From contig CALQYS010000004.1 in assembly GCA_943348755.1 (NCBI GenBank), positions 1 through 59,099 of the forward strand: a DNA stretch of 59,099 bases, written 5' to 3'. The number at the start of each line of letters is the position of its first letter. Position 1 is the stretch's first letter. A program made the position numbers and the translations under genes. Below the pieces are notes generated by a model. It worked only from the letters and a program-made list of their open reading frames with translations, had not been told where the DNA came from and ran no database searches. The stretch is from Candidatus Nomurabacteria bacterium (GTDB taxonomy: Bacteria; Patescibacteriota; Minisyncoccia; Phycocordibacterales; UBA9973). Of this stretch, positions 1 to 58,793 are shown piece by piece.

Positions 1-21
1 ACTGTTCGTCCACAACTTGTT

Positions 22-17094: not shown

Positions 17095-18135
17095 CTAGAG
17101 CAATTTCTCTTGCTTTTCTTTAAAATCGAAGTCTAGATGATCGTAAGCTTTTTTTGTCGCCACGCGGCCGCGGGCTGTGCGTTCGAGGAGTCCGAGCTGG
17201 AGCAAGTAGGGCTCGATGACTTCTTCTACTGTAGCTTCTTCTTCAGACATTGCCGCTGCCATCGTTTTGAGCCCCACCGGTCCGCCGTTAAATTTTTCAA
17301 TAAGTATTTCTAAGAATTTTCTATCAGAGGCATTTAGGCCGATGTCATCTACTGCGAGCATGTCAAGCGCTTCTCGCACTACTTTTTTATCCAAACTTTT
17401 TTTATTATCCTTTTTATTTACTTGTGCAAAGTCGCGAGCCCTTTTTAAAAAGTAGTTTGCCGTGCGGGGAGTGAATCGGCTTCTCTTGGCTATCTCTGCT
17501 AATGCTTCAGACTCGAGGGTTATGTCTAAAAGTTTCCCTGATCTCTCGATGATTTTTGCTATTTCTTCATTTGAATAAAATTCCAGACGAAAGACTCCGC
17601 CAGAGAATCGGGAGCGAAGGGGAGAGGAAATAAGGGCGACGCGCGTAGTGGCAGCGATGAGTGTAAAAGGTGGCAGATCTAATTGAATGGTCCGAGCTGA
17701 AGGACCTTTGCCTATGATGATGTCTAAAACACCGGACTCCATGGCGGGGTAGAGTATTTCTTCCACCATTTTGTTTAGTCTATGTATTTCGTCTATGAAA
17801 AGTATGTCGCCCGCGGCCAAATTGGTCAAAATAGACGCCAAATCACCCACTTTTTCAATCGCAGGACCCGAAGTTATCTTCATCTGCCTGCCTGTCTCTT
17901 TGGCGATGAGGTGGGCGAGAGTAGTTTTGCCTAATCCAGGGGGACCATAAAAAAGGATGTGTTCCGGGATGTGCCCGCGTTCTTCCGCTGCCCTTAAGAG
18001 GATTTTAACGTTGTCTTTTATGTGTTTTTGGCCGATATACTCATCCCAGCGGGTAGGACGCAGGGTCTGGTCTAGGACTACATCTTCAGATTTTTTTACC
18101 CCGCCTTGGCGTGGGTCTTTGGTTTCTTTGGGCAT
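17095..18135 (-). CDS. ruvB: Holliday junction branch migration ATPase RuvB
   Basis: Walker A GPPGLGKTT and Walker B LFIDEIHR. Confidence 0.95.
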   Translation of the reverse strand: MPKETKDPRQGGVKKSEDVVLDQTLRPTRWDEYIGQKHIKDNVKILLRAAEERGHIPEHILFYGPPGLGKTTLAHLIAKETGRQMKITSGPAIEKVGDLASILTNLAAGDILFIDEIHRLNKMVEEILYPAMESGVLDIIIGKGPSARTIQLDLPPFTLIAATTRVALISSPLRSRFSGGVFRLEFYSNEEIAKIIERSGKLLDITLESEALAEIAKRSRFTPRTANYFLKRARDFAQVNKKDNKKSLDKKVVREALDMLAVDDIGLNASDRKFLEILIEKFNGGPVGLKTMAAAMSEEEATVEEVIEPYLLQLGLLERTARGRVATKKAYDHLDFDFKEKQEKLL

Positions 18136-27807: not shown

Positions 27808-30270
27808 ATGTCTAAGGACCTAAAAATGCTTGTTTTGCTTGATGCCCACGCTATAATTCACCGTGCATATCATGCTTTGCCAGAGTTTTTGTCATCCAAG
27901 GGGGAGCCGACAGGAGCCCTCTATGGCCTTTCCTCTATGATTATGAAGATAGTGACTGATTTAAAGCCAGACTATATCGTGGCTTGTTACGATTTGCCCG
28001 GAAAAACATTTCGACATGTCGCTTATGATGCTTACAAAGCGGGCAGAGCGAAAGCAGATGATGCGCTGATCACACAATTAAAAAAATCTCGGGCTATTTT
28101 TGAAGCTTTTAATATTCCAATATATGACAGTACTGGTTTCGAAGCAGATGATGTACTTGGAACCATATGTGAAAAATATAAAAAAGACAGAAATCTAAAT
28201 ATTATCATTGCATCGGGTGATATGGACACCATGCAGCTCGTAGATGATAAAAAGGTACAGGTGTATACCCTCAAGAAGGGGATCAATGATGTTATTTTAT
28301 ATGATGAAGACGCAGTAGTGACACGTTTCGGATTTAAACCGGTGCTTTTACCAGACTATAAAGGGCTCCGTGGCGACACTTCGGATAACATCAAGGGAAT
28401 CAAAGGCATAGGAGAAAAAACAGCTACTACTTTGATCACTACTTTTGGAACAATCGAAGAAATTTATAAAAAAATAAAAAGAGACGAGGAATCTTTTAAA
28501 AAAGCTGGCATAACTCCCAGAATTATAGAATTAATCAAAAACAATGAGGAAGAAGCGCTGTTTTCTAAGACTTTAGCCAAAATTCGCACTGACGCACCGA
28601 TTGATTTTAAAATTCCCGAAAAAACTTTCTGGGAAAATGCTGATCCGAAAAAAATAGAAAAAGTTTTTTCTTTATTTGAATTCAGGAGCTTATTTATGCG
28701 TTTGAAAAGTTTTTTTGCATTACACCAGAAGCCCCCTCAGGAGAATCCTCTCGAGGGAACCCTTGGTAGGAGCGGCGGCGACGGACAGAGAAAATTTTCG
28801 GGAGAATTTTGGAGTGGTGAGTCCGAGAGGATTCTTCCTGAGGGGGCTTCTGAAAGAAATATCGACCCCACCAAGCTCCAAGAAGCCAGCATCGCTCTCT
28901 GGCTCGTGAACTCAGATATTTCCAATCCCCAGCTAGAAGACATGTTGCTATTCGCGAGCACGGATTCTTTCGAAACTGCTTACAAATATATTTTTGAACA
29001 GCTTAAAGCAAACAAACAGACGCTGGTGTATGAAGAGATAGAACGTCCGATCATGCATATTGTCAAAGAAATGGAAGATCATGGAATATTGGTAGATAAA
29101 AAATATTTTGAAAATTTATCCAAGGAATATCATAAGGAATTAGATAAATTAACAGCCAAAATATATCAGATGGCTGGTACTGAGTTTAATATCAATTCGC
29201 CGAAGCAGATGGGGGAAGTACTTTTTGAAAAGATGGGCATGAAATCTAGTAAGAAAAAAAGCGCAAGTGGATCTTTTTCAACTAAAATTTCCGTTTTGGA
29301 AGAGCTGGAAGAAGAAAATCCAATCATAACTGAAATTATGGCTTATAGAGAATTACAGAAGTTGCTTTCCACTTATATCGACGTAATTCCTAAAATGGTC
29401 GGTCCAGATAATCGTTTACATGCCAAATTCCTGCAAAATGGCAGTACCACGGGGCGATTTTCTTCTCAGGATCCCAATTTGCAGAATCTACCCATTAAAA
29501 CAGAGCTGGGTAAAAGGATTCGCAATGGTTTTATAGCACCTAAGGGTTACAAACTTTGCGCATTTGATTATAGTCAGATCGAATTACGGGTGGTAGCCAT
29601 GCTTTCCGGAGACAAAAAAATGACGCAGATATTCCGCGAGCAGAAAGATATTCATTCAGGAGTGGCCTCCTTTGTTTTCGGTGTACCGATGGAGAAAGTA
29701 GACAGTGAAATGCGTAGACAAGCGAAAGTGATAAATTTCGGCATCATTTATGGTATGGGGGTCTCAGCTTTACGTAAAAATCTTGGCGGTACACGTGAAG
29801 AAGCACAAAAATTTTACGACAATTATTTTAATCAGTTTTCTGGAGTGAGGAGTTATCTCGAAGAAGTGAAAAGGTTTGCTCTGAAGAATTCTTTCACCGA
29901 AACACTATTTGGCAGACGTAGGTATTTCCCGAATATAAACTCCAGAATTCCATTTTTGAAAAACATGGCCGAACGTACCGCTACTAATGCGCCAGTTCAA
30001 GGTACAGCCACAGCAGATATTATTAAGCTTGCCATCAGATATGCTGAAGAGGATTTAAAACAAGCGGGGCTACTCGATAAAGTTCACCTTGTGCTTCAGA
30101 TACATGACGAATTAGTGTATGAAGTAGAAGAAAATGTTTTATCAAAAGCAGATGAAATAATCAAAAATTCCATGCGGGGTGTATTGAACAGGTCTTATTT
30201 GCATTATAAGACAGACATTCCACTCGAAGTACATGTGGGTTACGGAGACAATTTTGGAGAGGTAAAATAA
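27808..30270 (+). CDS. polA: DNA polymerase I
   Basis: 5'-nuclease domain (LLDAHAIIHRAYHA) and Pol A motifs DYSQIELR, QIHDELV. Confidence 0.95.
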   Translation: MSKDLKMLVLLDAHAIIHRAYHALPEFLSSKGEPTGALYGLSSMIMKIVTDLKPDYIVACYDLPGKTFRHVAYDAYKAGRAKADDALITQLKKSRAIFEAFNIPIYDSTGFEADDVLGTICEKYKKDRNLNIIIASGDMDTMQLVDDKKVQVYTLKKGINDVILYDEDAVVTRFGFKPVLLPDYKGLRGDTSDNIKGIKGIGEKTATTLITTFGTIEEIYKKIKRDEESFKKAGITPRIIELIKNNEEEALFSKTLAKIRTDAPIDFKIPEKTFWENADPKKIEKVFSLFEFRSLFMRLKSFFALHQKPPQENPLEGTLGRSGGDGQRKFSGEFWSGESERILPEGASERNIDPTKLQEASIALWLVNSDISNPQLEDMLLFASTDSFETAYKYIFEQLKANKQTLVYEEIERPIMHIVKEMEDHGILVDKKYFENLSKEYHKELDKLTAKIYQMAGTEFNINSPKQMGEVLFEKMGMKSSKKKSASGSFSTKISVLEELEEENPIITEIMAYRELQKLLSTYIDVIPKMVGPDNRLHAKFLQNGSTTGRFSSQDPNLQNLPIKTELGKRIRNGFIAPKGYKLCAFDYSQIELRVVAMLSGDKKMTQIFREQKDIHSGVASFVFGVPMEKVDSEMRRQAKVINFGIIYGMGVSALRKNLGGTREEAQKFYDNYFNQFSGVRSYLEEVKRFALKNSFTETLFGRRRYFPNINSRIPFLKNMAERTATNAPVQGTATADIIKLAIRYAEEDLKQAGLLDKVHLVLQIHDELVYEVEENVLSKADEIIKNSMRGVLNRSYLHYKTDIPLEVHVGYGDNFGEVK
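28730..28847. repeat. GC-rich palindromic element inserted in frame in the polA inter-domain linker
   Basis: Terminal inverted repeats GCCCCCTCAGGAGAATCCTCTCG / CGAGAGGATTCTTCCTGAGGGGGC. The core is about 85 percent identical by eye to a segment inside uvrB. Confidence 0.65.
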
Positions 30271-33045: not shown

Positions 33046-35295
33046 ATGTTAAAAAAAAGAGTGGGCAGTGTTTTTAAATTACACAAACCATGGGAGCCGA
33101 GTGGGGATCAGCCAGTAGCTATTTCGGCATTGGTGCAAGGCTTAGATAAGGGGATGGTAAAGCAAACATTACTCGGCGCTACAGGCACAGGTAAGACTTT
33201 TACCATGGCGAATGTAATCGCCGAGTACAACAAGCCGACGCTTGTAATAGCGCACAACAAAACCCTGGCCGCTCAGTTGGCCCAAGAATTTAGACTATTT
33301 TTCCCAGATGCCGCAGTACATTATTTTGTTTCATACTATGATTACTACCAGCCAGAGGCTTACATGCCGGCTTCCGATACATATATTGAAAAGGATGCTT
33401 CTATTAACAAAGAGATAGACATGCTCCGCCACGCTTCCACTCAAGCTCTGCTCACTCGGCCGGATGTCATTATCGTGGCTTCCGTCTCTTGTATTTACGG
33501 TTTAGGTTCTCCAGAAGAATATGAAAAAGTAAATTTAAAACTAGAAGTTGGGCAGAAAAGAGACCGTATGGAATTAATGAAGTCTCTCATTCAAATTCAT
33601 TTTGAACGCACAAATGCAGATTTAACTCCAGGAACTTTTCGTTCCATTGGTTCTCGAGTAGAATTTATGCCTGTTTCTGAGACGGTAATGTACCAGATAG
33701 AATTACAGGGAGGGTTAATACAAAAAATTATTAAAGTTGACCCGATATCTTCAAAAATTATTAAAGAAGAAAACAACCCACGCCAAGGCGGGGCAAGTAT
33801 TTTTATTTTTCCAGCGAAGCATTTTATTACTGAAGATGTGAAAAAGAAAAAAGCGCTAGTTGATATTAAAAAAGAGTTAGAAATACAACTAAAAAAATTT
33901 AAAAAAGAAGGAAAGCTTTTAGAAGGGGAGCGTATCAAACGCCGGACGAATTATGATTTGGCAATGATCAAAGAAGTAGGTTATTGCAACGGCATTGAAA
34001 ACTATTCACGGCACCTTTCGGGTAAAGATGAAGGTGAACCGCCAGAAACACTACTTTCATATTTTCCAAAGACTGGTTTTCTGACTATTATCGATGAATC
34101 ACATGTCACATTACCCCAGCTCCAAGGCATGTATGCCGGTGATGCTTCACGCAAAAATACCCTTGTAGAATATGGCTTCCGCCTGCCTTCAGCCAAAGAC
34201 AACCGGCCTCTAAAATATGAAGAATTCAAAGAGCGTATTGGACAGGTGGTGTATGTCAGTGCCACTCCGAGCGAACAAGAAAGAACAGAAAGCGCACAAG
34301 TCGTAGAGCAAATCATTCGCCCGACCGGGCTGGTAGATCCAGAAATTGTTTTGCGTCCGGTTTCTGCAGGACGGAATACTCTCGAGCGAACCCTTGGTAG
34401 GAGTGGCGACGACGGACAGAGAAAATTTTCAGCAGAAAATTTTCGTGGTGAGTCCGAGAGTATTTTTTCCGCAAGAAACTACAAGGGTCAAATTCAGGAT
34501 TTCATAGGAGAAACAGAAAAAACAATCAAAAAAGGTTTCCGTGTTTTGGCGACCACGCTGACCAAAAAAATGGCCGAGGACCTTTCTACTTATCTAAAGG
34601 ATAAAAAAATAAAAGCGGAGTATCTTCATAGTGATATCAAGACCATTGAAAGAATAAAAATACTTACTCAATTCCGTAAAGGGGAATTCGATGTCTTGGT
34701 GGGGGTAAACTTGCTCCGTGAGGGGTTGGATTTGCCAGAAGTCGCGCTGATTGGTATTTTAGATGCTGATAAGGCTGGCTTTTTGCGTTCTGAGACATCA
34801 CTTATCCAAACTATTGGTCGTGCTGCACGTAATAGTGAGGGACGAGTAGTACTCTATGCGGATATCATGACTAATGCTATGGATTACGCCATAAAAGAAA
34901 CGACTCGCCGCCGAAACATTCAGCTTGCCTACAATAAAAAACATGGCATCACTCCAAAAACTATTATGAAAAAGATCAAGGATATTACCGAAGAGCTGGA
35001 AAGTGAGCATGGCAAGGTGGTGAATGCAGAACTCGCTCTAGATGTTGAATTATTTAAAAAAGTTTTTGCAAAAGAGAAAAACAATAAAGGAAAAAATGAA
35101 TCGGATTCAATTAAAAATTTAATGTTGTCTGATGAGGAAAGAAATAAGGTTGTCTACGATAAAATAATAAAAATGAAAGAAAAAGAAATGAATAAAGCAG
35201 TTAAAGAGCTTGATTTTGAGACAGCGGCTATATTGAGGGATGAGATTGGGGTGCTAAAGGTCCGCTTAGAAAAGAAAGATTCAAAAGAAAAATAA
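33046..35295 (+). CDS. uvrB: excinuclease ABC subunit B
   Basis: GATGTGKTF, DESH, helicase motifs, and a C-terminal UVR domain. Confidence 0.95.
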   Translation: MLKKRVGSVFKLHKPWEPSGDQPVAISALVQGLDKGMVKQTLLGATGTGKTFTMANVIAEYNKPTLVIAHNKTLAAQLAQEFRLFFPDAAVHYFVSYYDYYQPEAYMPASDTYIEKDASINKEIDMLRHASTQALLTRPDVIIVASVSCIYGLGSPEEYEKVNLKLEVGQKRDRMELMKSLIQIHFERTNADLTPGTFRSIGSRVEFMPVSETVMYQIELQGGLIQKIIKVDPISSKIIKEENNPRQGGASIFIFPAKHFITEDVKKKKALVDIKKELEIQLKKFKKEGKLLEGERIKRRTNYDLAMIKEVGYCNGIENYSRHLSGKDEGEPPETLLSYFPKTGFLTIIDESHVTLPQLQGMYAGDASRKNTLVEYGFRLPSAKDNRPLKYEEFKERIGQVVYVSATPSEQERTESAQVVEQIIRPTGLVDPEIVLRPVSAGRNTLERTLGRSGDDGQRKFSAENFRGESESIFSARNYKGQIQDFIGETEKTIKKGFRVLATTLTKKMAEDLSTYLKDKKIKAEYLHSDIKTIERIKILTQFRKGEFDVLVGVNLLREGLDLPEVALIGILDADKAGFLRSETSLIQTIGRAARNSEGRVVLYADIMTNAMDYAIKETTRRRNIQLAYNKKHGITPKTIMKKIKDITEELESEHGKVVNAELALDVELFKKVFAKEKNNKGKNESDSIKNLMLSDEERNKVVYDKIIKMKEKEMNKAVKELDFETAAILRDEIGVLKVRLEKKDSKEK
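34373..34470. repeat. GC-rich palindromic element inserted in frame in uvrB
   Basis: Shares CTCGAG.GAACCCTTGGTAGGAG.GGCG.CGACGGACAGAGAAAATTTTC...GGTGAGTCCGAGAG with the polA copy. Central hairpin AAAATTTTC-AGCA-GAAAATTTT. Confidence 0.65.
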
Positions 35296-37993: not shown

Positions 37994-39223
37994 ATGAAAA
38001 GTGAATCTTTCAAAAAAATAAAACTACCTGATACGCCCGGAGTGTACTTTTTCCGCAAGGGAAAGGATATTTTATATATCGGCAAAGCGACTTCATTGCG
38101 TGAGCGCACCAAAAGTTATTTTGCAAAGGATTTATTCAATACTCGTGGGCCGCTCATTATTGATATGGTTGTCAAAGCGGGCAAACTCGACTGGCAAGAA
38201 ACAGAAAGCGTGCTCGAAGCTCTTATCTTAGAAGCTGAACTTATAAAAAAGCATCAGCCCTACTACAACACTAGAGAAAAAGACAATAAAAGCTTCAATG
38301 TCGTATGTATTACAAAAGAAGTCTTTCCAAAAGTATTAGTTTTAAGAGAAAGGGGGCTAAGGTTTGGATTGCAAGAAGAAAATGCTACAAAATTCCAAGC
38401 AAAATATGGGCCATTTACGAATGGTTTACAGCTCCGAGAAGCAATGAAAATCATTCGTCGCATTTTTCCTTATCTTGATTCAAAATCTGCCCAGCCTGAC
38501 AATTTTGAGTTTTATCGACAGATAGGTCTCGCGCCAGATATAGGGACAAAGGAAGCGCAAATTGCCTATGGCAACAACATAAAAAATCTGAAGCTGTTTT
38601 TTCAGGGCAAGAAAAAAAGAGTTGTTTCTAATTTTAAAAAAGAAATGGTGGCGTATGCAAAAAATAAAGAATTCGAGTTGGCGAATGAGATGAAAAAAAG
38701 AATTTTTGCACTCACTCATATAAATGACATCGCTCTTTTGAAAAATGATGTTCAGTTGAATAAAAATTCATTCCGAATTGAAGCTTATGACATCGCTCAT
38801 ATGGGAGGAAAAAATATGGTGGGGGTTATGACGGTGGTGGAAGACGGAGAAGCTGTAAAAAGCGAGTACAAGAAATTCAAGATCAGGACTCAATCTGATG
38901 CAAATGACACTGGGGCGCTCAGGGAAGTTCTGGAGAGGCGTTTGGCACATACAGAATGGCCCTATCCAGCTCTTATCGTCGTGGACGGCGGTACGGCTCA
39001 GATAAACATTGCTAAAATGTCCCTAAAGATTGCGGATGTTAATATTCCCATTGTTTCTGTGTTGAAAGATGAGACACATAAGCCGAAGGACATTATGGGC
39101 GATAAAGATTTTGCAGTAAAATATAAAAGAGAAATCTTGCTCGCAAATAGCGAAGCGCATCGTTTCGCCATCGCTTATCATAAAAAAATGCGGAATAAAA
39201 ATTTCTTAAATATTGAAAAATGA
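37994..39223 (+). CDS. uvrC: excinuclease ABC subunit C (short form, no evident C-terminal HhH2 domain)
   Basis: GIY-YIG (GVYFF...ILYIGKA), UVR motif, endonuclease region YDIAHMGG ... VVDGGTAQ ... EAHRFAI. Only 409 aa. Confidence 0.85.
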   Translation: MKSESFKKIKLPDTPGVYFFRKGKDILYIGKATSLRERTKSYFAKDLFNTRGPLIIDMVVKAGKLDWQETESVLEALILEAELIKKHQPYYNTREKDNKSFNVVCITKEVFPKVLVLRERGLRFGLQEENATKFQAKYGPFTNGLQLREAMKIIRRIFPYLDSKSAQPDNFEFYRQIGLAPDIGTKEAQIAYGNNIKNLKLFFQGKKKRVVSNFKKEMVAYAKNKEFELANEMKKRIFALTHINDIALLKNDVQLNKNSFRIEAYDIAHMGGKNMVGVMTVVEDGEAVKSEYKKFKIRTQSDANDTGALREVLERRLAHTEWPYPALIVVDGGTAQINIAKMSLKIADVNIPIVSVLKDETHKPKDIMGDKDFAVKYKREILLANSEAHRFAIAYHKKMRNKNFLNIEK

Positions 39224-41560: not shown

Positions 41561-42322
41561 ATGAGCACTAACACACAGGCTGCGATGGTGGCGATCCTTC
41601 AAGGGGTTAACCTGAATGACTCGCGCATGGACACACAAACGCTTCAAGCAATTGTTGATGCGCAAAAGCAAGGTCGGCTCAAGGGCCCTTTAACGGACTG
41701 GTTCGCCACGCAACAGTGGAATCAGGGCAAGTTCTCTGCCCGCGCCAAGTTCGTCGTCAACACTGGTTCCAAAGCGAAAGTGAAGATCTCATGTCTGGGA
41801 GACAACTTCCAGGCATGGCATCTTAGTTCCGTCGAGGAGTATATCCCGACGGAAGAACTCACCTACTTCATCTTGGAAAACGCCATGGATGACAGTGAAA
41901 TCATCGCCAAGCTTGGCGGTGTCGCCAAGTCTATCACCTCGCTCGGCGAGATTTACCTCAGGATGGAGCATCAGCCGCACGGGCCGAAAAGCCCCGCCGG
42001 CGATATGCTCACTGATGGTTCCGCCAACATCTTCTACGTGCCTCAGGCCGTGGATAAGGTGGATGACAACCATTTCAGTTACGTCGGTTCCGACGGCCAG
42101 ACCACCAAGATCATCCACGAGGAGTTGAAAGACTCCCAATGCCTCTTCAAGGTCGGTGATCAGTGGTTCGTGCTCCGCGCGGTCCGCGTCTTCTGGCATG
42201 TCGACGGTTGGTACGTCCTTGCCTTCTCCGTTGAGTTTCCGTACGGTTGGTATGCCGGCTCTCGGGTGTTCTCTCGCAATTCACTCAAATCCTCAGTTCC
42301 TCAGGAAAAAGCTGTAAGCTGA
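41561..42322 (+). CDS. DGR target (variable) protein
   Basis: 253-aa ORF, visibly GC-richer than its neighbours. The C-terminal approx 38 codons form the VR. Confidence 0.8.
   Translation: MSTNTQAAMVAILQGVNLNDSRMDTQTLQAIVDAQKQGRLKGPLTDWFATQQWNQGKFSARAKFVVNTGSKAKVKISCLGDNFQAWHLSSVEEYIPTEELTYFILENAMDDSEIIAKLGGVAKSITSLGEIYLRMEHQPHGPKSPAGDMLTDGSANIFYVPQAVDKVDDNHFSYVGSDGQTTKIIHEELKDSQCLFKVGDQWFVLRAVRVFWHVDGWYVLAFSVEFPYGWYAGSRVFSRNSLKSSVPQEKAVS
42167..42279 (+). repeat. DGR variable region (VR)
   Basis: Aligns without gaps to 42657-42769. By my count all 20 mismatches fall where the template has A. Confidence 0.85.
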
Positions 42323-42656: not shown

Positions 42657-42769
42657 TTCGTGCTCCGCGCGGTCAACGTCAACTGGAATGACGACGGTTG
42701 GAACGTCAATGCCAACTCCGTTGAGAATCCGAACAGTTGGAATGCCGGCAATCAGGTGTTCTCTCGAAA
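42657..42769 (+). repeat. DGR template region (TR)
   Basis: Adenine-rich copy of the VR (many AAC/AAT codons in the VR frame), 490 bp downstream of the VR. Confidence 0.85.
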
Positions 42770-51671: not shown

Positions 51672-52604
51672 ATGAAAAAACAAATTGGTTATATTGGGCT
51701 TGGGAAAATGGGAAGGAATATGGTTTTGGGGTTGCTTCTTAAAAAATGGGGTATTGTTGCGTATAATAGGAATTTGGAAAAAGTAAAAGAGGTTGTCGAA
51801 CAAGGAGCAGTCGGCACATCCAGTATAAAAGAATTAGTTTCTAAACTTTCCGCTCCTAGGGTGGTGTGGGTGATGGTGTCACATCAGGCAGTGGGGGAGA
51901 TTATAGATGAATTGGCACCCTTACTTCATAAAGGAGATCTTATTATTGACGGCGGGAATTCACCGTATCAAGATTCAAGAAAAAGATCGAAAGAACTTTC
52001 GAAAAAGGGGATTGAATTTTTAGATATCGGTGTTTCTGGCGGTCCTGGAGGAGCGCTTCAGGGTGCTTGTATGATGGTAGGTGGTAAAAAGGAGTTATAT
52101 GAAAAGCTTAATAAAAGTGGATTTTTTGCTGACACCTGTGTAGAAAAAGGCTATGGCTATATGGGCGGTTCAGGGTCAGGCCACTTTGTGAAAATGGTTC
52201 ACAATGGTGTCGAATATGGGATGATGCAGTCTATTGCTGAAGGGTTTGACCTTATGCGTCATTCAAAAGAATTTGAATTGGATCTTTTAAAAGTTGCAGA
52301 TGTATATTCGCATGGAAGTGTTATTACATCTCGCCTGGTCTCTTGGATGCAAAATGGTTACAAAAAATATGGTAAAGATCTAAATGAAATTTCCGGTCGC
52401 GCTTCGGCGTCTGGCGAAGGCAAATGGACTGTGGAAGCAGGTAAAAGAGAGAACATATCTATGCCGGCCATTCAAGCTTCTCTCGATAGCAGAGCAGCAT
52501 CACAGAAAAAACCTTCTTATCAGGGGAAAGTAGTTTCCACTATGCGTGGTGAGTTTGGCGAGCATCCAGTGAAAAGAGGTGAAGATGAACCGGAGATTCT
52601 TTAA
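51672..52604 (+). CDS. gnd: 6-phosphogluconate dehydrogenase, short (about 300 aa) form
   Basis: GYIGLGKMGRNM Rossmann fold, GGNS, and HFVKMVHNGVEYG. Confidence 0.8.
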   Translation: MKKQIGYIGLGKMGRNMVLGLLLKKWGIVAYNRNLEKVKEVVEQGAVGTSSIKELVSKLSAPRVVWVMVSHQAVGEIIDELAPLLHKGDLIIDGGNSPYQDSRKRSKELSKKGIEFLDIGVSGGPGGALQGACMMVGGKKELYEKLNKSGFFADTCVEKGYGYMGGSGSGHFVKMVHNGVEYGMMQSIAEGFDLMRHSKEFELDLLKVADVYSHGSVITSRLVSWMQNGYKKYGKDLNEISGRASASGEGKWTVEAGKRENISMPAIQASLDSRAASQKKPSYQGKVVSTMRGEFGEHPVKRGEDEPEIL

Positions 52605-52619
52605 TATACAAAAAATATT

Positions 52620-52697
52620 TCTATGGCAGACTTGCGCAGGCCGACTGGGCCGAGCACAGCAAAAATTCAGCAGAATTTTATGCGTGTCTGTCAGAGA
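52620..52697. repeat. intergenic palindromic element related to the polA/uvrB in-frame repeats
   Basis: Imperfect outer stem TCTATGGCAGAC / GTCTGTCAGAGA. The core CACAGCAAAAATTCAGCAGAATTTTATGCG resembles the uvrB copy GACAGAGAAAATTTTCAGCAGAAAATTTTCG. Confidence 0.4.
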
Positions 52698-52723
52698 AAT
52701 GATTTTTGGTATATTATGTATGT

Positions 52724-53353
52724 ATGAAAATTATAGACATATCGCTTCCTCTAAATAACCAGACTCCTGTGTACCCAGGCAATGTTTCGCTTTCCGTCAG
52801 TATTCATCATGCGATACCGGAACATGCAACCCAACTTTCCACTATTACTATGGGCTCTCACACAGGTACACACATAGATGCACCGGCTCATGCAGTGGCT
52901 GGTGCTATGACTCTTGATAAAATTCCTCTTGAAAATTTTATTGGGCCATGTAGAGTCTTTGATCTTTCAAAAGAGGACGATGAAGCTGTTACGAAAAAAA
53001 TGTTAGAAGACAAAAATGTAAAAAAGGGAGAACGAATCCTTTTAAAAACCAGAAATTCACTGCGTGGTCTTAAAGAATTTTATGATGATTATGTTTATTT
53101 AGATGGCGATGCGGCTGATTATCTGGCGGGTATCAGTGTGATGCTCGTCGGCATTGATGCTTTATCTATAAAAAAGAGGGGAGGTGATGATCATCGCCCG
53201 CATACCTCACTTCTTTCAAAGAATATTCCTATTATCGAAGGATTAAATCTTACCAACGTTTCCGAGGGGAGCTATGAGCTCTTTTGTCCACCCCTTAATT
53301 TTACCAACATAGATGGAGCGCCTACCCGAGCTGTGCTCATCCAACATGCGTAA
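52724..53353 (+). CDS. cyclase-family protein (kynurenine formamidase-like)
   Basis: HTGTHIDAPAH metal-binding motif. Start at the ATG at 52724. Confidence 0.7.
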   Translation: MKIIDISLPLNNQTPVYPGNVSLSVSIHHAIPEHATQLSTITMGSHTGTHIDAPAHAVAGAMTLDKIPLENFIGPCRVFDLSKEDDEAVTKKMLEDKNVKKGERILLKTRNSLRGLKEFYDDYVYLDGDAADYLAGISVMLVGIDALSIKKRGGDDHRPHTSLLSKNIPIIEGLNLTNVSEGSYELFCPPLNFTNIDGAPTRAVLIQHA

Positions 53354-55704: not shown

Positions 55705-56006
55705 AAATTGCGGTATTCATTGTACAAAATTCGAACTTATTTTGAAAGCAATCCTGATGATACCGACTACTAGCGTTCCCCGCGCGCTACGCGCCTCTGT
55801 GCAAAGCACAGAGCTTTCCCAAAGGGAAAGTGCGGGAAACGCTAAATGCAAATGCGGACTCGGTTTTGCGAAGCAATTTTGCGGGAGGAGGATCCGCAAA
55901 ACCGAGACTAAAGTTTTTGAAATTCGGCGGGATTTGGGCTTCCGCCCCGCATTCCTCCCGCACCCTCCTGCGGGGCGAGGCTTTGCTTTTTTGGCGGGCG
56001 CGGGCT
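55705..56006 (+). repeat. left copy of a 302-bp GC-rich structured inverted repeat
   Basis: Reverse complement of 58491-58793. The outer approx 168 bp are identical by manual alignment. Confidence 0.85.
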
Positions 56007-58490: not shown

Positions 58491-58793
58491 AGCCCGCGCC
58501 CGCCAAAAAAGCAAAGCCTCGCCCCGCATTCCTCCCGCACCCTCCTGCGGGGCGGAAGCCCAAATCCCGCCGAATTTCAAAAACATTAGTCTCGGTTTTG
58601 CGAATCCTCTCTCCCGCAAAACTGTTTCGCAAAACCGAGTCCGCATTTGCATTTAGCGTTTCCCGCACTTTCCCTTTGGGAAAGCTCTGTGCTTTGCACA
58701 GAGGCGCGTAGCGCGCGGGGAACGCTAGTAGTCGGTATCATCAGGATTGCTTTCAAAATAAGTTCGAATTTTGTACAATGAATACCGCAATTT
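58491..58793 (-). repeat. right copy of the 302-bp GC-rich structured inverted repeat
   Basis: See the left copy. It lies directly upstream of, and in the same orientation as, the two cassette genes. Confidence 0.85.

What the first reader, a model, noticed from the sequence alone, without database searches (positions are those of the whole stretch)
28730..28847. GC-rich palindromic repeat inserted in frame in DNA polymerase I
polA carries an approx 118-nt segment with approx 23-nt terminal inverted repeats: GCCCCCTCAGGAGAATCCTCTCG ... CGAGAGGATTCTTCCTGAGGGGGC. It also has a central AAAATTTTC / GAATTTT hairpin. The segment is translated as ..PPQENPLEGTLGRSGGDGQRKFSGEFWSGESERILPEGA.. in the linker between the 5'-nuclease and polymerase parts. 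Almost the same DNA (and peptide, LERTLGRSGDDGQRKFSAENFRGESES) occurs inside uvrB. Two unrelated essential genes sharing an approx 80-nt nucleotide-level repeat means a mobile palindromic element that tolerates, or selects for, in-frame insertion. This is analogous to Rickettsia palindromic elements. I do not recognise it as a described family.
Basis: seen in the sequence. Interest (0 to 1): 0.7.

Follow-up and report, generated by a model that had tools for sequence, protein, structure and literature searches.

The report
In-frame palindromic repeat family in Nomurabacteria
A roughly 100-130-base hairpin-forming repeat sits, translated in frame, inside DNA polymerase I and UvrB of an uncultured Nomurabacteria (CPR) bacterium. 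It belongs to a dispersed, apparently undescribed family that behaves like the Rickettsia palindromic elements, but its best-conserved part is the tip of the hairpin, not the ends.

Summary
polA (28726-28852) and uvrB (34361-34478) carry the same element on the + strand in the same reading frame. A covariance model finds a third, diverged, intergenic copy at 52596-52724.

Scans of public genomes and metagenomes gave 121 distinct copies, all in Nomurabacteria/Paceibacterota and none in viral contigs:
- 64 lie in long ORFs in one frame (peptide LGRSxxDGQRKFSAENFR).
- 6 lie antisense in ORFs.
- 51 are intergenic or at contig ends.
- The coding copies fall in 16 site clusters, including PolA, UvrB, UvrC, UvrD, RecG, RnhA, Fmt, KsgA, TsaD, Dus and MetK.

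Each copy is a long hairpin (median 29 bp) that covaries strongly. It encloses a 54-nt, near-constant core with two small hairpins. The constraint acts on nucleotides, not on the peptide. Orthologous sites are filled, empty, flipped or occupied by other palindromic families.

Best reading (confidence 0.7): a selfish, non-autonomous palindromic element, RPE-like, that survives only where its hydrophilic frame lands in a permissive loop. The mobilising machinery is unknown. No Rfam family and no paper found describe it. I class it as a new variant of a known kind.

The parts
28726..28852 (+). Element copy 1: the full hairpin inside polA, read in frame as QKPPQENPLEGTLGRSGGDGQRKFSGEFWSGESERILPEGAS
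   Evidence: CM R1 scores it 93.9 bits.
28726..28753 (+). Copy 1, 5' arm of stem P1 (CAGAAGCCCCCTCAGGAGAATCCTCTCG)
   Evidence: Self-complementary blastn hit of 29 nt at 96.6%. Seen in the MFE structure.
28762..28815 (+). Copy 1, conserved 54-nt core (CTTGGTAGGAGCGGCGGCGACGGACAGA - P2 - GAG), alignment A3 columns 37-90
28792..28811 (+). Copy 1, inner hairpin P2. This is the variant GAAAATTTTCGGGAGAATTTTGG, also found in uvrC copies L045 and L119
28824..28852 (+). Copy 1, 3' arm of stem P1 (CGAGAGGATTCTTCCTGAGGGGGCTTCTG)
34361..34478 (+). Element copy 2: the full hairpin inside uvrB. UvrB residues 441-479 (AGRNTLERTLGRSGDDGQRKFSAENFRGESESIFSARNY) have no counterpart in solved UvrB
   Evidence: CM R1 scores it 119.2 bits.
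34393..34446 (+). Copy 2, conserved 54-nt core; P2 lies at 34423-34442
52596..52724 (+). Element copy 3: diverged 'B-type' core (CTTGCGCAGGCCGACTGGGCCGAGCACAGC + P2) inside a 27-bp stem. It is intergenic, between a 310-aa ORF (51672-52604) and a 215-aa ORF (52706-53353)
   Evidence: CM R1 50.9 bits, E 2.2e-9. Sequence and ORFs. Fold -44.5 kcal/mol.
27808..30270 (+). Host gene polA (820 aa). The insert lies after the 5'-nuclease domain, in a linker that is hypervariable among relatives
33046..35295 (+). Host gene uvrB (749 aa). The insert lies between ..LRPVS and KGQIQDF..
38741..38776 (+). Empty site in the window's uvrC (..KNDVQLNKNSFR|IEAYD..). Eight other genomes or contigs carry the element here. 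The site is not palindromic

Best explanation
This is a family of small, non-autonomous, hairpin-forming repeat elements that spread and turn over in Nomurabacteria/Paceibacterota genomes. It is selfish DNA of the Rickettsia-palindromic-element kind.

Anatomy. The unit is a 54-nt core flanked by inverted arms. Arms of about 12-24 nt are shared within a subfamily. The whole element forms a long hairpin with a three-way junction at its tip.

How copies survive in genes. Copies land both in intergenic DNA and in genes. Inside genes they persist only where three conditions hold: the length keeps the frame, the frame read is stop-free, and the site is a permissive surface loop or interdomain linker. 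The frame is almost always the one giving the very hydrophilic peptide LGRS(D/G)(G/D)DGQRKFSAENFRG. There the element is transcribed and translated as an extra 27-40 residues.

What happens after insertion:
- The arms stay complementary, and pairing extends beyond the arms shared within a subfamily. This is inferred to come from intrastrand template switching or selection on the hairpin.
- Cores stay alike within a genome, inferred to reflect gene conversion or fresh copying.
- The element can be deleted between its arms, leaving a small palindrome behind.
- It can appear in the opposite orientation at the same site.

Shown: the anatomy, the distribution, in-frame residence, covariation, nucleotide-level constraint, and filled, empty and flipped alleles.

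Inferred: mobility itself, the mechanism that keeps the arms paired, and the reason the core is conserved. I take the core to be the part recognised by an unidentified mobilising or processing protein.
For: Distribution:
- The core pattern has 65 exact matches in 64 loci from species-representative genomes. All are Nomurabacteria/Paceibacterota/Patescibacteria MAGs, with up to 5 in one 813-kb contig.
- There are 82 more loci in metagenomes and none in viral contigs.
- The CM finds about 12 extra diverged copies in 0.5 Mb of those loci and a third copy in the window.

Context and frames:
- Of 121 distinct copies, 64 are in long ORFs in frame +0, 6 are antisense in ORFs, and 51 are intergenic or at contig edges.
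- Coding copies fall in 16 site clusters in unrelated housekeeping genes.
- Four of six frames of the core are stop-free, yet usage is 64:0:5:1. The frame used is the most hydrophilic, GRAVY -1.47 against -0.10, -0.92 and -0.08.

Structure:
- P1 has a median of 29 bp.
- 92.6% of cells are paired, against 41-54% when the partner is slid by 1-3 columns. 24 of 35 pairs show compensatory changes. 0 of 500 shuffles reach the observed values.

The constraint is not on the peptide:
- Core identity is the same in non-coding copies (0.852) and coding copies (0.855).
- Variation is highest at codon position 2 and lowest at position 3.

Turnover:
- The window's uvrC is empty where 8 other genomes or contigs are filled. 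The window's uvrB is filled where L056 and L045 are empty and L001 and L002 hold a different palindromic family.
- polA alleles L150 and L151 equal the filled allele L003 minus exactly 84 nt. They retain the outer palindrome.
- The same site holds opposite orientations in Dus, TsaD and UvrD. All three antisense sites also hold sense copies in other genomes.
- Same-genome, different-site cores differ less (3.3 of 33 columns) than unrelated copies (5.0; p = 6e-4). They are at least as alike as orthologous copies (4.2).

Insertion relative to solved homologues.
Against: - No mobilising enzyme, autonomous parent or general target-site duplication was found. All 121 cores are intact and contiguous.
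- The termini are the least conserved part, the opposite of classical MITEs.
- Orthologous copies in genomes whose PolA proteins are only about 80% identical keep cores at 87-94% identity while flanking CDS is at 70-78%. This comparison is inflated because 21 of the 54 core positions were fixed by the search pattern. Pure selfish drift does not predict it. It needs either a sequence-specific partner or a host function.
- The + strand hairpin is systematically better paired than the - strand: G:U 137 against 63, A.C mismatches 15 against 39. That hints at selection on one strand.
- Mobility is inferred from distribution only. No recent, near-identical filled/empty polymorphism within one population was seen.
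Confidence: 0.7

Rival explanations
1. The hairpin is a functional structured RNA carried inside mRNAs and UTRs and kept by the host. It could be a cis-regulatory element, a processing signal such as an RNase III site, a protein-binding module or a small ribozyme. The in-frame peptide would be only a by-product.
For: - Covariation is strong in P1 and P2, and one covarying pair lies inside the core (48:53, CG 38 / UA 20).
- The core is under nucleotide-level constraint, not peptide-level constraint.
- The + strand is more stable than the - strand in 60 of 61 copies, with an excess of G:U over A.C.
- The core is conserved beyond the flanking CDS.
Against: - Orthologous genes do equally well without it, with other families in its place, or with it flipped.
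- Intergenic copies are mostly antisense to the neighbouring genes: 16 '-,-' against 5 '+,+'. Coding copies are sense. No single transcribed strand is therefore shared.
- No Rfam family matches at gathering score or at E <= 10, apart from generic hairpin (miRNA-precursor) models.
- Inverted-repeat DNA gives the same covariation without any RNA function.
Confidence: 0.12
2. It is a single-stranded-DNA hairpin element moved by a structure-specific recombinase or HUH/tyrosine enzyme, as with integron attC sites, IS200/IS605-type ends or REPIN/RAYT. Only the + strand hairpin would be the active form. This is a mechanistic sub-version of the mobile-element reading.
For: - Structure is conserved rather than arm sequence, and the pairing is strand-asymmetric.
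- No TIR/TSD signature of a DDE transposase was found.
- The core holds GGTAGG, which resembles the GTAG motif of REPs. That resemblance is from memory only.
- The DNA fold is also highly stable, z = -6.7 and -4.5.
Against: - No such enzyme gene was seen next to any copy.
- The conserved part is the loop and junction, whereas in attC sites and REPINs it is the stem or its base.
- Most copies are intragenic, unlike REPs.
- Orientation relative to replication could not be tested on 8-kb loci.
Confidence: 0.2
3. The segment is a protein module: a short peptide domain or linear motif recruited by several DNA-repair proteins, or an ancestral part of the PolA linker.
For: - The same peptide appears in PolA, UvrB, UvrC, UvrD, RecG and RnhA, always in one frame.
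- The peptide is hydrophilic and low in complexity, like many interaction motifs.
Against: - Non-coding copies conserve the core equally well, and variation peaks at codon position 2.
- Antisense copies at the same protein sites encode an unrelated peptide.
- Hosts also include Fmt, KsgA, TsaD, Dus and MetK.
- A profile of the peptide finds only 9 proteins among 1.84 billion cluster representatives.
- Only 6 of the 120 closest PolA proteins have it, and solved UvrB and Taq polymerase lack it.
Confidence: 0.03

Closest known systems
Rickettsia palindromic elements (RPE; Ogata et al. 2000, 2002, as summarised in PMC10969869)
   Same: - About 100-150-bp palindromic repeats, dispersed and found in both intergenic DNA and genes.
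- A large share is inserted in frame in unrelated housekeeping genes, encoding a conserved peptide in one preferred frame.
- Insertions lie at positions compatible with protein function.
- Several families occur per lineage.
- No transposase is known.
- Restricted to one reduced-genome lineage.
   Different: - Different phylum (Patescibacteria/CPR rather than Alphaproteobacteria).
- No sequence relation was detected: no match to the core pattern outside Patescibacteria in 185,579 species genomes.
- The best-conserved part here is an apical 54-nt three-way-junction core, while the stem varies and covaries.
- Sense and antisense copies occur at the same protein site, and different palindromic families occupy the same sites.
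Bacterial MITEs (for example Correia, ERIC, BOX, RUP, Nezha, QMITE)
   Same: Small, non-coding, multi-copy, hairpin-forming and occasionally intragenic with open frames (PMC10969869).
   Different: Classical MITEs have conserved terminal inverted repeats matching a parent IS, and a target-site duplication. Here the termini are the least conserved part, no general TSD is seen and no parent element was found.
REP/REPIN elements mobilised by RAYT transposases (PMC3116915, listed; the features used here are from memory, the paper was not read)
   Same: Long hairpins built from inverted repeats, with within-genome families and presumed single-strand hairpin recognition.
   Different: REPINs are extragenic. 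Their arms (the REPs) are the conserved part and the loop is variable. Here 58% of copies are in ORFs and the loop and junction are the conserved part.
Quasi-palindrome template-switch mutagenesis and arm-to-arm conversion in palindromes (established knowledge, from memory)
   Same: It would explain why the arms stay nearly perfect and why pairing extends beyond the shared arms. That extension is 6.1 of 9 positions paired against 4.3 expected by chance. The net insertion (81-114 nt) is mostly shorter than the hairpin (108-127 nt).
   Different: It is a mutational process, not an element family. Its role here is inferred, not shown.

Membership tests
Rickettsia palindromic elements (RPE-like class) | A 100-150-bp repeat able to form a stable long hairpin | tested here: met
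   Hairpins of 118-127 nt, z = -5 to -6. Median P1 is 29 bp over 58 copies.
Rickettsia palindromic elements (RPE-like class) | Many dispersed copies per lineage, in both genes and intergenic DNA | tested here: met
   121 distinct copies, 70 in ORFs and 51 intergenic or at contig edges. There are 3 copies in this 59-kb window.
Rickettsia palindromic elements (RPE-like class) | Intragenic copies are in frame and share one reading frame and peptide | tested here: met
   64 of 70 coding copies are in frame +0 (LGRS..DGQRKFSAENFR). All 16 site clusters hold +0 copies.
Rickettsia palindromic elements (RPE-like class) | Insertions sit at surface or linker positions compatible with function | tested here: inconclusive
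   The UvrB insert has no counterpart in solved UvrB and sits between two aligned blocks. The PolA insert follows the 5'-nuclease domain in a hypervariable linker. No 3D model was made.
Rickettsia palindromic elements (RPE-like class) | Sequence homology to RPE-1..10 or presence in Rickettsia (membership proper) | tested here: not met
   The core pattern matches only Patescibacteria among 185,579 species genomes. RPE consensus sequences were not compared directly.
Classical MITE | Terminal inverted repeats conserved among copies | tested here: inconclusive
   Inner arms are shared within subfamilies, for example GGRCAAWATGTTCTCGAG. The outer stem differs between copies, and the core is the most conserved part.
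Classical MITE | Target-site duplication | tested here: not met
   No general direct repeat flanks the copies. The exceptions are a 9-nt imperfect repeat at the polA indel, which is itself a palindromic arm, and GAGCGA repeats in one intergenic subfamily.
Classical MITE | A related autonomous IS carrying the same ends | tested here: not met
   None of 121 copies has the core halves separated by coding sequence. Whole genomes could not be searched.
REP/REPIN-RAYT | Extragenic location; conserved arms with a variable loop | tested here: not met
   58% of copies are in ORFs, and the loop and junction are conserved while the arms vary.
REP/REPIN-RAYT | A RAYT gene in the same genomes | not testable with these tools
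   Only loci of up to 22.5 kb around matches were available.
Described RNA families (Rfam 15, including small ribozymes and riboswitches) | A match to a covariance model | tested here: not met
   No hit at gathering score in the window or in 12 loci. At E <= 10 only generic miRNA-precursor hairpin models hit.
Intein, intron or translational-bypass element | Removed from the RNA or protein, so no need for an open, in-phase frame | tested here: not met
   All 70 copies scored as intragenic are stop-free and in phase with the host ORF. A copy was only scored as intragenic if an ORF ran through it, so copies that break a gene would have been counted as non-coding. At 27-40 aa the insert is far too small for an intein. 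Removal was not tested experimentally.

The most novel reading that the evidence does not exclude
The near-constant 54-nt three-way-junction core is an active nucleic-acid module. It would be the recognition or catalytic centre of an unknown hairpin-based mobility or processing system specific to CPR bacteria.

Such a system would act on one strand, maintain and extend its own stem, and be able to flip in place. On this reading the family is a new class of element rather than a MITE-like relic. The same machinery might also serve the several other palindromic families that occupy the very same protein sites.
Probability: 0.2. Interest if true: 0.8.

Novelty: new variant of a known kind. Interest (0 to 1): 0.62.

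Why it matters
- CPR/Patescibacteria have tiny genomes with few recognised mobile elements. Here their core replication, repair and translation genes (PolA, UvrB/C/D, RecG, Fmt, KsgA, TsaD, MetK) are repeatedly colonised by translated palindromic DNA. At least five or six families share the same permissive sites.
- It is a second, independent case of the 'protein-coding palindrome' phenomenon so far tied to Rickettsia, another reduced-genome lineage. This supports a general link between genome reduction and in-frame selfish DNA.
- It explains hypervariable linkers and length variation in CPR proteins, and probably some split or mis-called genes in MAGs.
- It gives a compact marker (covariance model R1) for the clade.
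- The inverted conservation pattern (constant tip, compensated stem) and the filled, empty and flipped alleles make the family a tractable system. It could be used to study how long palindromes are created, maintained and tolerated inside essential genes.

Tried and rejected
The next found no candidates, although relatives with the peptide exist. This is a limit of the word index.
- Peptide profile against 1.84 billion representatives: only 9 short hits. Insert-bearing proteins are represented by insert-free cluster representatives. The result is useful only as evidence against a widespread domain.
- Exact look-up of the window's PolA: not on record, because a different start codon was called.
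- Rfam at gathering and permissive thresholds: nothing specific.
- Viral contigs: no match.
- Search for an unoccupied 'ACT..GAGCGA..CCTTTAC' target of the intergenic subfamily: none in 149 loci, and only chance-level matches in the window.
- The 300-nt inverted repeats at 55.7-58.8 kb as a possible parent transposon: no similarity to the element, and I saw no transposase among the ORFs by eye; they were not searched against any library.
- NER-specific regulon idea (polA, uvrB, uvrC): dropped after Fmt, KsgA, TsaD, Dus and MetK copies were found.
- A pre-existing palindromic target at the uvrC site: the window's empty site is not palindromic.
- Simple symmetric flip as the sole origin of antisense copies: most antisense copies are read in a frame that an exact flip would not give, so this stays unresolved.
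- Near-identical filled/empty population variants: none closer than about 80-90% flank identity was found.
Full report
**1. The observation**

polA (27808-30270, +, 820 aa) runs through the segment and translates it as ..HQKPPQENPLEGTLGRSGGDGQRKFSGEFWSGESERILPEGASE...

- The inverted repeat is longer than reported. 28726-28753 pairs with 28824-28852, 29 nt at 96.6%.
- The 127-nt stretch 28726-28852 folds into one long hairpin: RNA -66.9 kcal/mol, z = -6.0; DNA z = -6.7.
- A second copy lies in uvrB (33046-35295, +). 34374-34467 matches 28743-28836 at 86-87% identity, E 1.5e-19. It is on the same strand and in the same frame..SAGRNTLERTLGRSGDDGQRKFSAENFRGESESIFSAR... It is also a hairpin, -43.7 kcal/mol, z = -4.9.
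- A 35-nt probe hits these two places only, with none expected by chance.

**2. Organism and the polA site**

- The closest PolA proteins (77-86% identity) come from Candidatus Nomurabacteria, Paceibacterota and Parcubacteria MAGs.
- In 120 homologues the stretch between RSLFxRLKxFF and KLQEASIALW is hypervariable.
- The same peptide is present in P0001 (the window's own protein), P0004, P0005, P0013, P0104 and, as a variant, P0086.
- Many others carry other recurrent peptides: EFSRVLGSPAQSSLEERAQPDQLENSL, ESFGAGLAGVGDPENRGPEKTLLS, ALRHSHSILEGQ.., GSLSPRARGALPLGPSACE...
- Some have a short linker (792-800 aa).
- Against Taq polymerase, the 5'-nuclease domain aligns up to residue 308 and the polymerase domain from residue 397. 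The insert therefore lies in the interdomain region.
- In UvrB, solved structures align contiguously across the site: chain residue 428 aligns with both query 440 and query 480. Residues 441-479 are thus a clean insertion.

**3. A dispersed family**

- DNA of three PolA relatives (L001-L003) shows the element at the same polA position. A further copy lies in uvrC of L001.
- An exact scan for CTTGGTAGGAG-N4-8-CGACGGACAG over one genome per species (185,579 species) gave 65 matches in 64 loci. All are in Nomurabacteria, Paceibacterota or Patescibacteria MAGs, with five in one 813-kb contig.
- The same scan gave 82 loci in JGI/ENA metagenomes and none in viral contigs.
- After removing duplicates there are 121 copies: 64 in long ORFs in frame +0 (CTT GGT AGG AGx = LGRS), 6 antisense in long ORFs, and 51 intergenic or at contig edges. 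None is in the other frames.
- Coding copies fall in 16 site clusters. By their motifs these lie in UvrD/PcrA (two sites), PolA, UvrB, UvrC, RecG, RNase H, Fmt, KsgA/RsmA, TsaD, Dus, MetK, an HD-domain protein and others.
- The element is therefore not specific to excision repair.

**4. Anatomy**

An ungapped alignment of 60 copies (A3) and their individual folds show a common plan.

- **Core.** A 54-nt core reads CTTGGTAGGAG-YGRCGR-CGACGGACAGA-[P2: GAAAATTTTC AGCA GAAAATTTTC]-GTG.
- **Stem.** The core is enclosed by a long stem P1, median 29 bp, range 14-36.
- **Consensus fold.** RNAalifold draws a three-way junction of P1, an imperfect hairpin over the GGTAGGAG..CGACGGACAG part, and P2.
- **Pair counts.** 92.6% of cells are paired, against 41-54% for slid partners. 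24 of 35 pairs have changes on both sides. No shuffle in 500 reaches the observed values. All 16 scored P1 pairs covary, P2 covaries (CG 37 / UA 18 at its closing pair), and one pair inside the core covaries (C:G 38, U:A 20).
- **Subfamilies** differ in their arms:
  - Type A is mostly coding: GGRCAAWATGTTCTCGAGSGAACC..GGTGAGTCCGAGAAYATWTTGYCC.
  - Type B is AGTTCTTTTTAAAAGCC..GCTTTTTAAAAGAAGCT.
  - There is a Fmt type.
  - An intergenic type carries GAGCGA on both sides.
- **Diverged copies.** A covariance model built from A3 (R1) finds a third window copy at 52596-52724, 50.9 bits. It also finds about a dozen more in the fetched loci. Many of these carry a diverged 'B-type' core, CTTGCGCAGGCCGACTGGGCCGAGCAGAGC.., in which the second hairpin is a proper covarying GGCC/GGCC stem.
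- **Nested inserts.** Some copies hold a small GC-rich hairpin inside the core.

**5. What is under constraint**

- The core is as conserved in non-coding copies (0.852 mean pairwise identity over the 33 columns not fixed by the search pattern) as in coding ones (0.855).
- In coding copies, variability is highest at codon position 2 (0.54 bits) and lowest at position 3 (0.23 bits).
- The constraint is therefore on the nucleotides, not on the peptide. Antisense copies at the same protein sites encode unrelated peptides.
- Among orthologous copies the core is 87-94% identical, the arms 61-82% and the downstream CDS 70-78%. This comparison is inflated by ascertainment, since 21 core positions were required by the pattern, and the CM shows that more diverged cores exist.
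- Cores of different sites in one genome differ by 3.3 of 33 columns. Orthologous sites in different genomes differ by 4.2, and unrelated pairs by 5.0. This points to copying or conversion within genomes as well as vertical descent.

**6. Frame use**

- Four of the six frames of the canonical core are stop-free, yet use is 64:0:5:1.
- Every one of the 16 site clusters has +0 copies.
- The +0 peptide is by far the most hydrophilic, GRAVY -1.47.
- I read this as a filter. Only insertions that add a soluble, probably disordered peptide to a loop of an essential protein survive. This is the RPE pattern as summarised in PMC10969869.

**7. Turnover**

- uvrC is empty in this window and in L002 but filled in eight other genomes or contigs.
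- uvrB is filled here and empty in L056 and L045. In L001 and L002 it is occupied by a different palindromic family (GSLSPRARGALPLGPSACE..) at the same position.
- ksgA and uvrD also show filled alleles, empty alleles and alleles holding other families.
- The net insertion is 27-38 aa (81-114 nt). The hairpins are 108-127 nt, usually longer than the net gain.
- The nine positions outside the shared type-A arms are more complementary than chance, 6.1 against 4.3 (site-level p = 2e-4). The empty uvrC site itself is not palindromic. Either the arms are longer and diverged, or the palindrome has grown into the flanks.
- The clearest allele pair is polA. L150 and L151 equal the filled L003 minus exactly 84 nt, bounded by GAATGTTCT and GAATATTCT, and they keep the outer palindrome AAGACACA..TGTGTCTT. 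I read these as deletion footprints.
- In Dus, TsaD and UvrD the whole element, including the asymmetric inner arms, is found in either orientation at the same site in different genomes. All three antisense sites are also sense sites. This favours inversion in place, or very strong site preference. The two could not be separated.

**8. Strand questions (unexplained)**

- The + strand folds better than the - strand in 60 of 61 copies.
- P1 holds 137 G:U and 15 A.C on the + strand, against 63 and 39 on the - strand.
- This would fit selection on one strand, RNA or ssDNA. But intergenic copies are mostly antisense to their neighbours (16 against 5), often directly after the stop codon of a gene on the other strand. 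No single transcribed strand is therefore shared by coding and non-coding copies.
- Shared ancestry of orthologous copies and mutational bias are not excluded.

**9. Comparison with what is known**

- No Rfam 15 family matches.
- Three full-text searches found no description of such elements in CPR, Patescibacteria, Parcubacteria or Nomurabacteria.
- The closest known phenomenon is the Rickettsia palindromic elements. The shared traits are size, hairpin, dispersal, in-frame residence in unrelated housekeeping genes in one frame, several families, no known transposase and a reduced-genome host.
- It is not a member of the RPE families by sequence or taxon.
- It departs from RPEs, MITEs and REPINs in having its conservation concentrated in the apical core while the stem is free to vary with compensation. 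No conserved termini, general target-site duplication or autonomous parent were found.

**10. Verdict**

- Most likely (0.7) this is a selfish, non-autonomous palindromic element family of Nomurabacteria that is translated where tolerated.
- The mechanism of spread and the reason for core conservation are inferred, not shown.
- A functional RNA or ssDNA role for the core remains possible (0.1-0.2).
- Novelty: new variant of a known kind. Interest: 0.62.

Noticed in passing
window 33775-33796 (uvrB, +) and 18096-18118 (ruvB N-terminus, gene on - strand): A roughly 20-nt GC-rich mini-palindrome, CCCACGCCAAGGCGGGG, is inserted in frame in two genes and encodes PRQGG in both. It is absent from solved UvrB and from the UvrB of L001. 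It looks like a second, much smaller in-frame palindromic family.
   Followed up: partly
window 55705-56006 and 58491-58793: Roughly 300-nt inverted repeats (97-100% complementary, themselves holding GC-rich palindromes) flank a low-GC (26-31%) 2.5-kb segment. The segment carries a 665-aa and a 191-aa ORF on the - strand. I saw no transposase by eye; the ORFs were not searched against any library. It may be a foreign cassette.
   Followed up: partly
window 42167-42279 and 42657-42769: A 113-nt direct repeat at 82% identity, 490 nt apart, lies in a region of raised GC (0.45-0.46). It overlaps the 3' end of a 253-aa ORF.
   Followed up: no
PolA homologues P0002-P0120; L001:16015-18441 and L002:4531-6654 (uvrB); L030 and L034 (uvrD): At least four or five other recurrent, probably palindromic, in-frame insert families occupy the same polA linker, uvrB and uvrD sites in relatives. 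Their peptides are GSLSPRARGALPLGPSACE.., EFSRVLGSPAQSSLEERAQPDQLENSL, ESFGAGLAGVGDPENRGPEKTLLS, ALRHSHSILEGQ..SSEDSSEH and RGVSQADEPRGSAP... The closest relatives of the window's PolA (P0002, P0003) carry a different family at the same spot.
   Followed up: partly
L054:1878-2045; L030:7516-7668; L006:6598-6750; L055:6057-6217: Copies of the element itself carry nested 24-39-nt GC-rich hairpin insertions inside the conserved core. Two of them remain in frame in ksgA.
   Followed up: partly
L005, L024, L033, L041, L042, L046, L061, L062 (intergenic copies): One intergenic subfamily has GAGCGA direct repeats on both sides of the hairpin and conserved flanks (CACTWRAGCGAG .. CGAGCGANCCTTTAC). It sits immediately after the stop codon of a gene on the opposite strand. 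No unoccupied version of this motif was found.
   Followed up: partly
L002:4531-6654: uvrB of this groundwater contig is called as two genes because of an in-frame TAA (..ATPSE*ERT..) upstream of the element site. This could be a pseudogene, a sequencing error or read-through.
   Followed up: no
window 28792-28811; L045 and L119 (uvrC copies): The unusual P2 variant of the window's polA copy (..TTTTCGGGAGAATTTTGGAG, peptide FSGEFWSG) recurs in uvrC copies of other genomes. The variant has therefore moved between genes or been spread by conversion.
   Followed up: no
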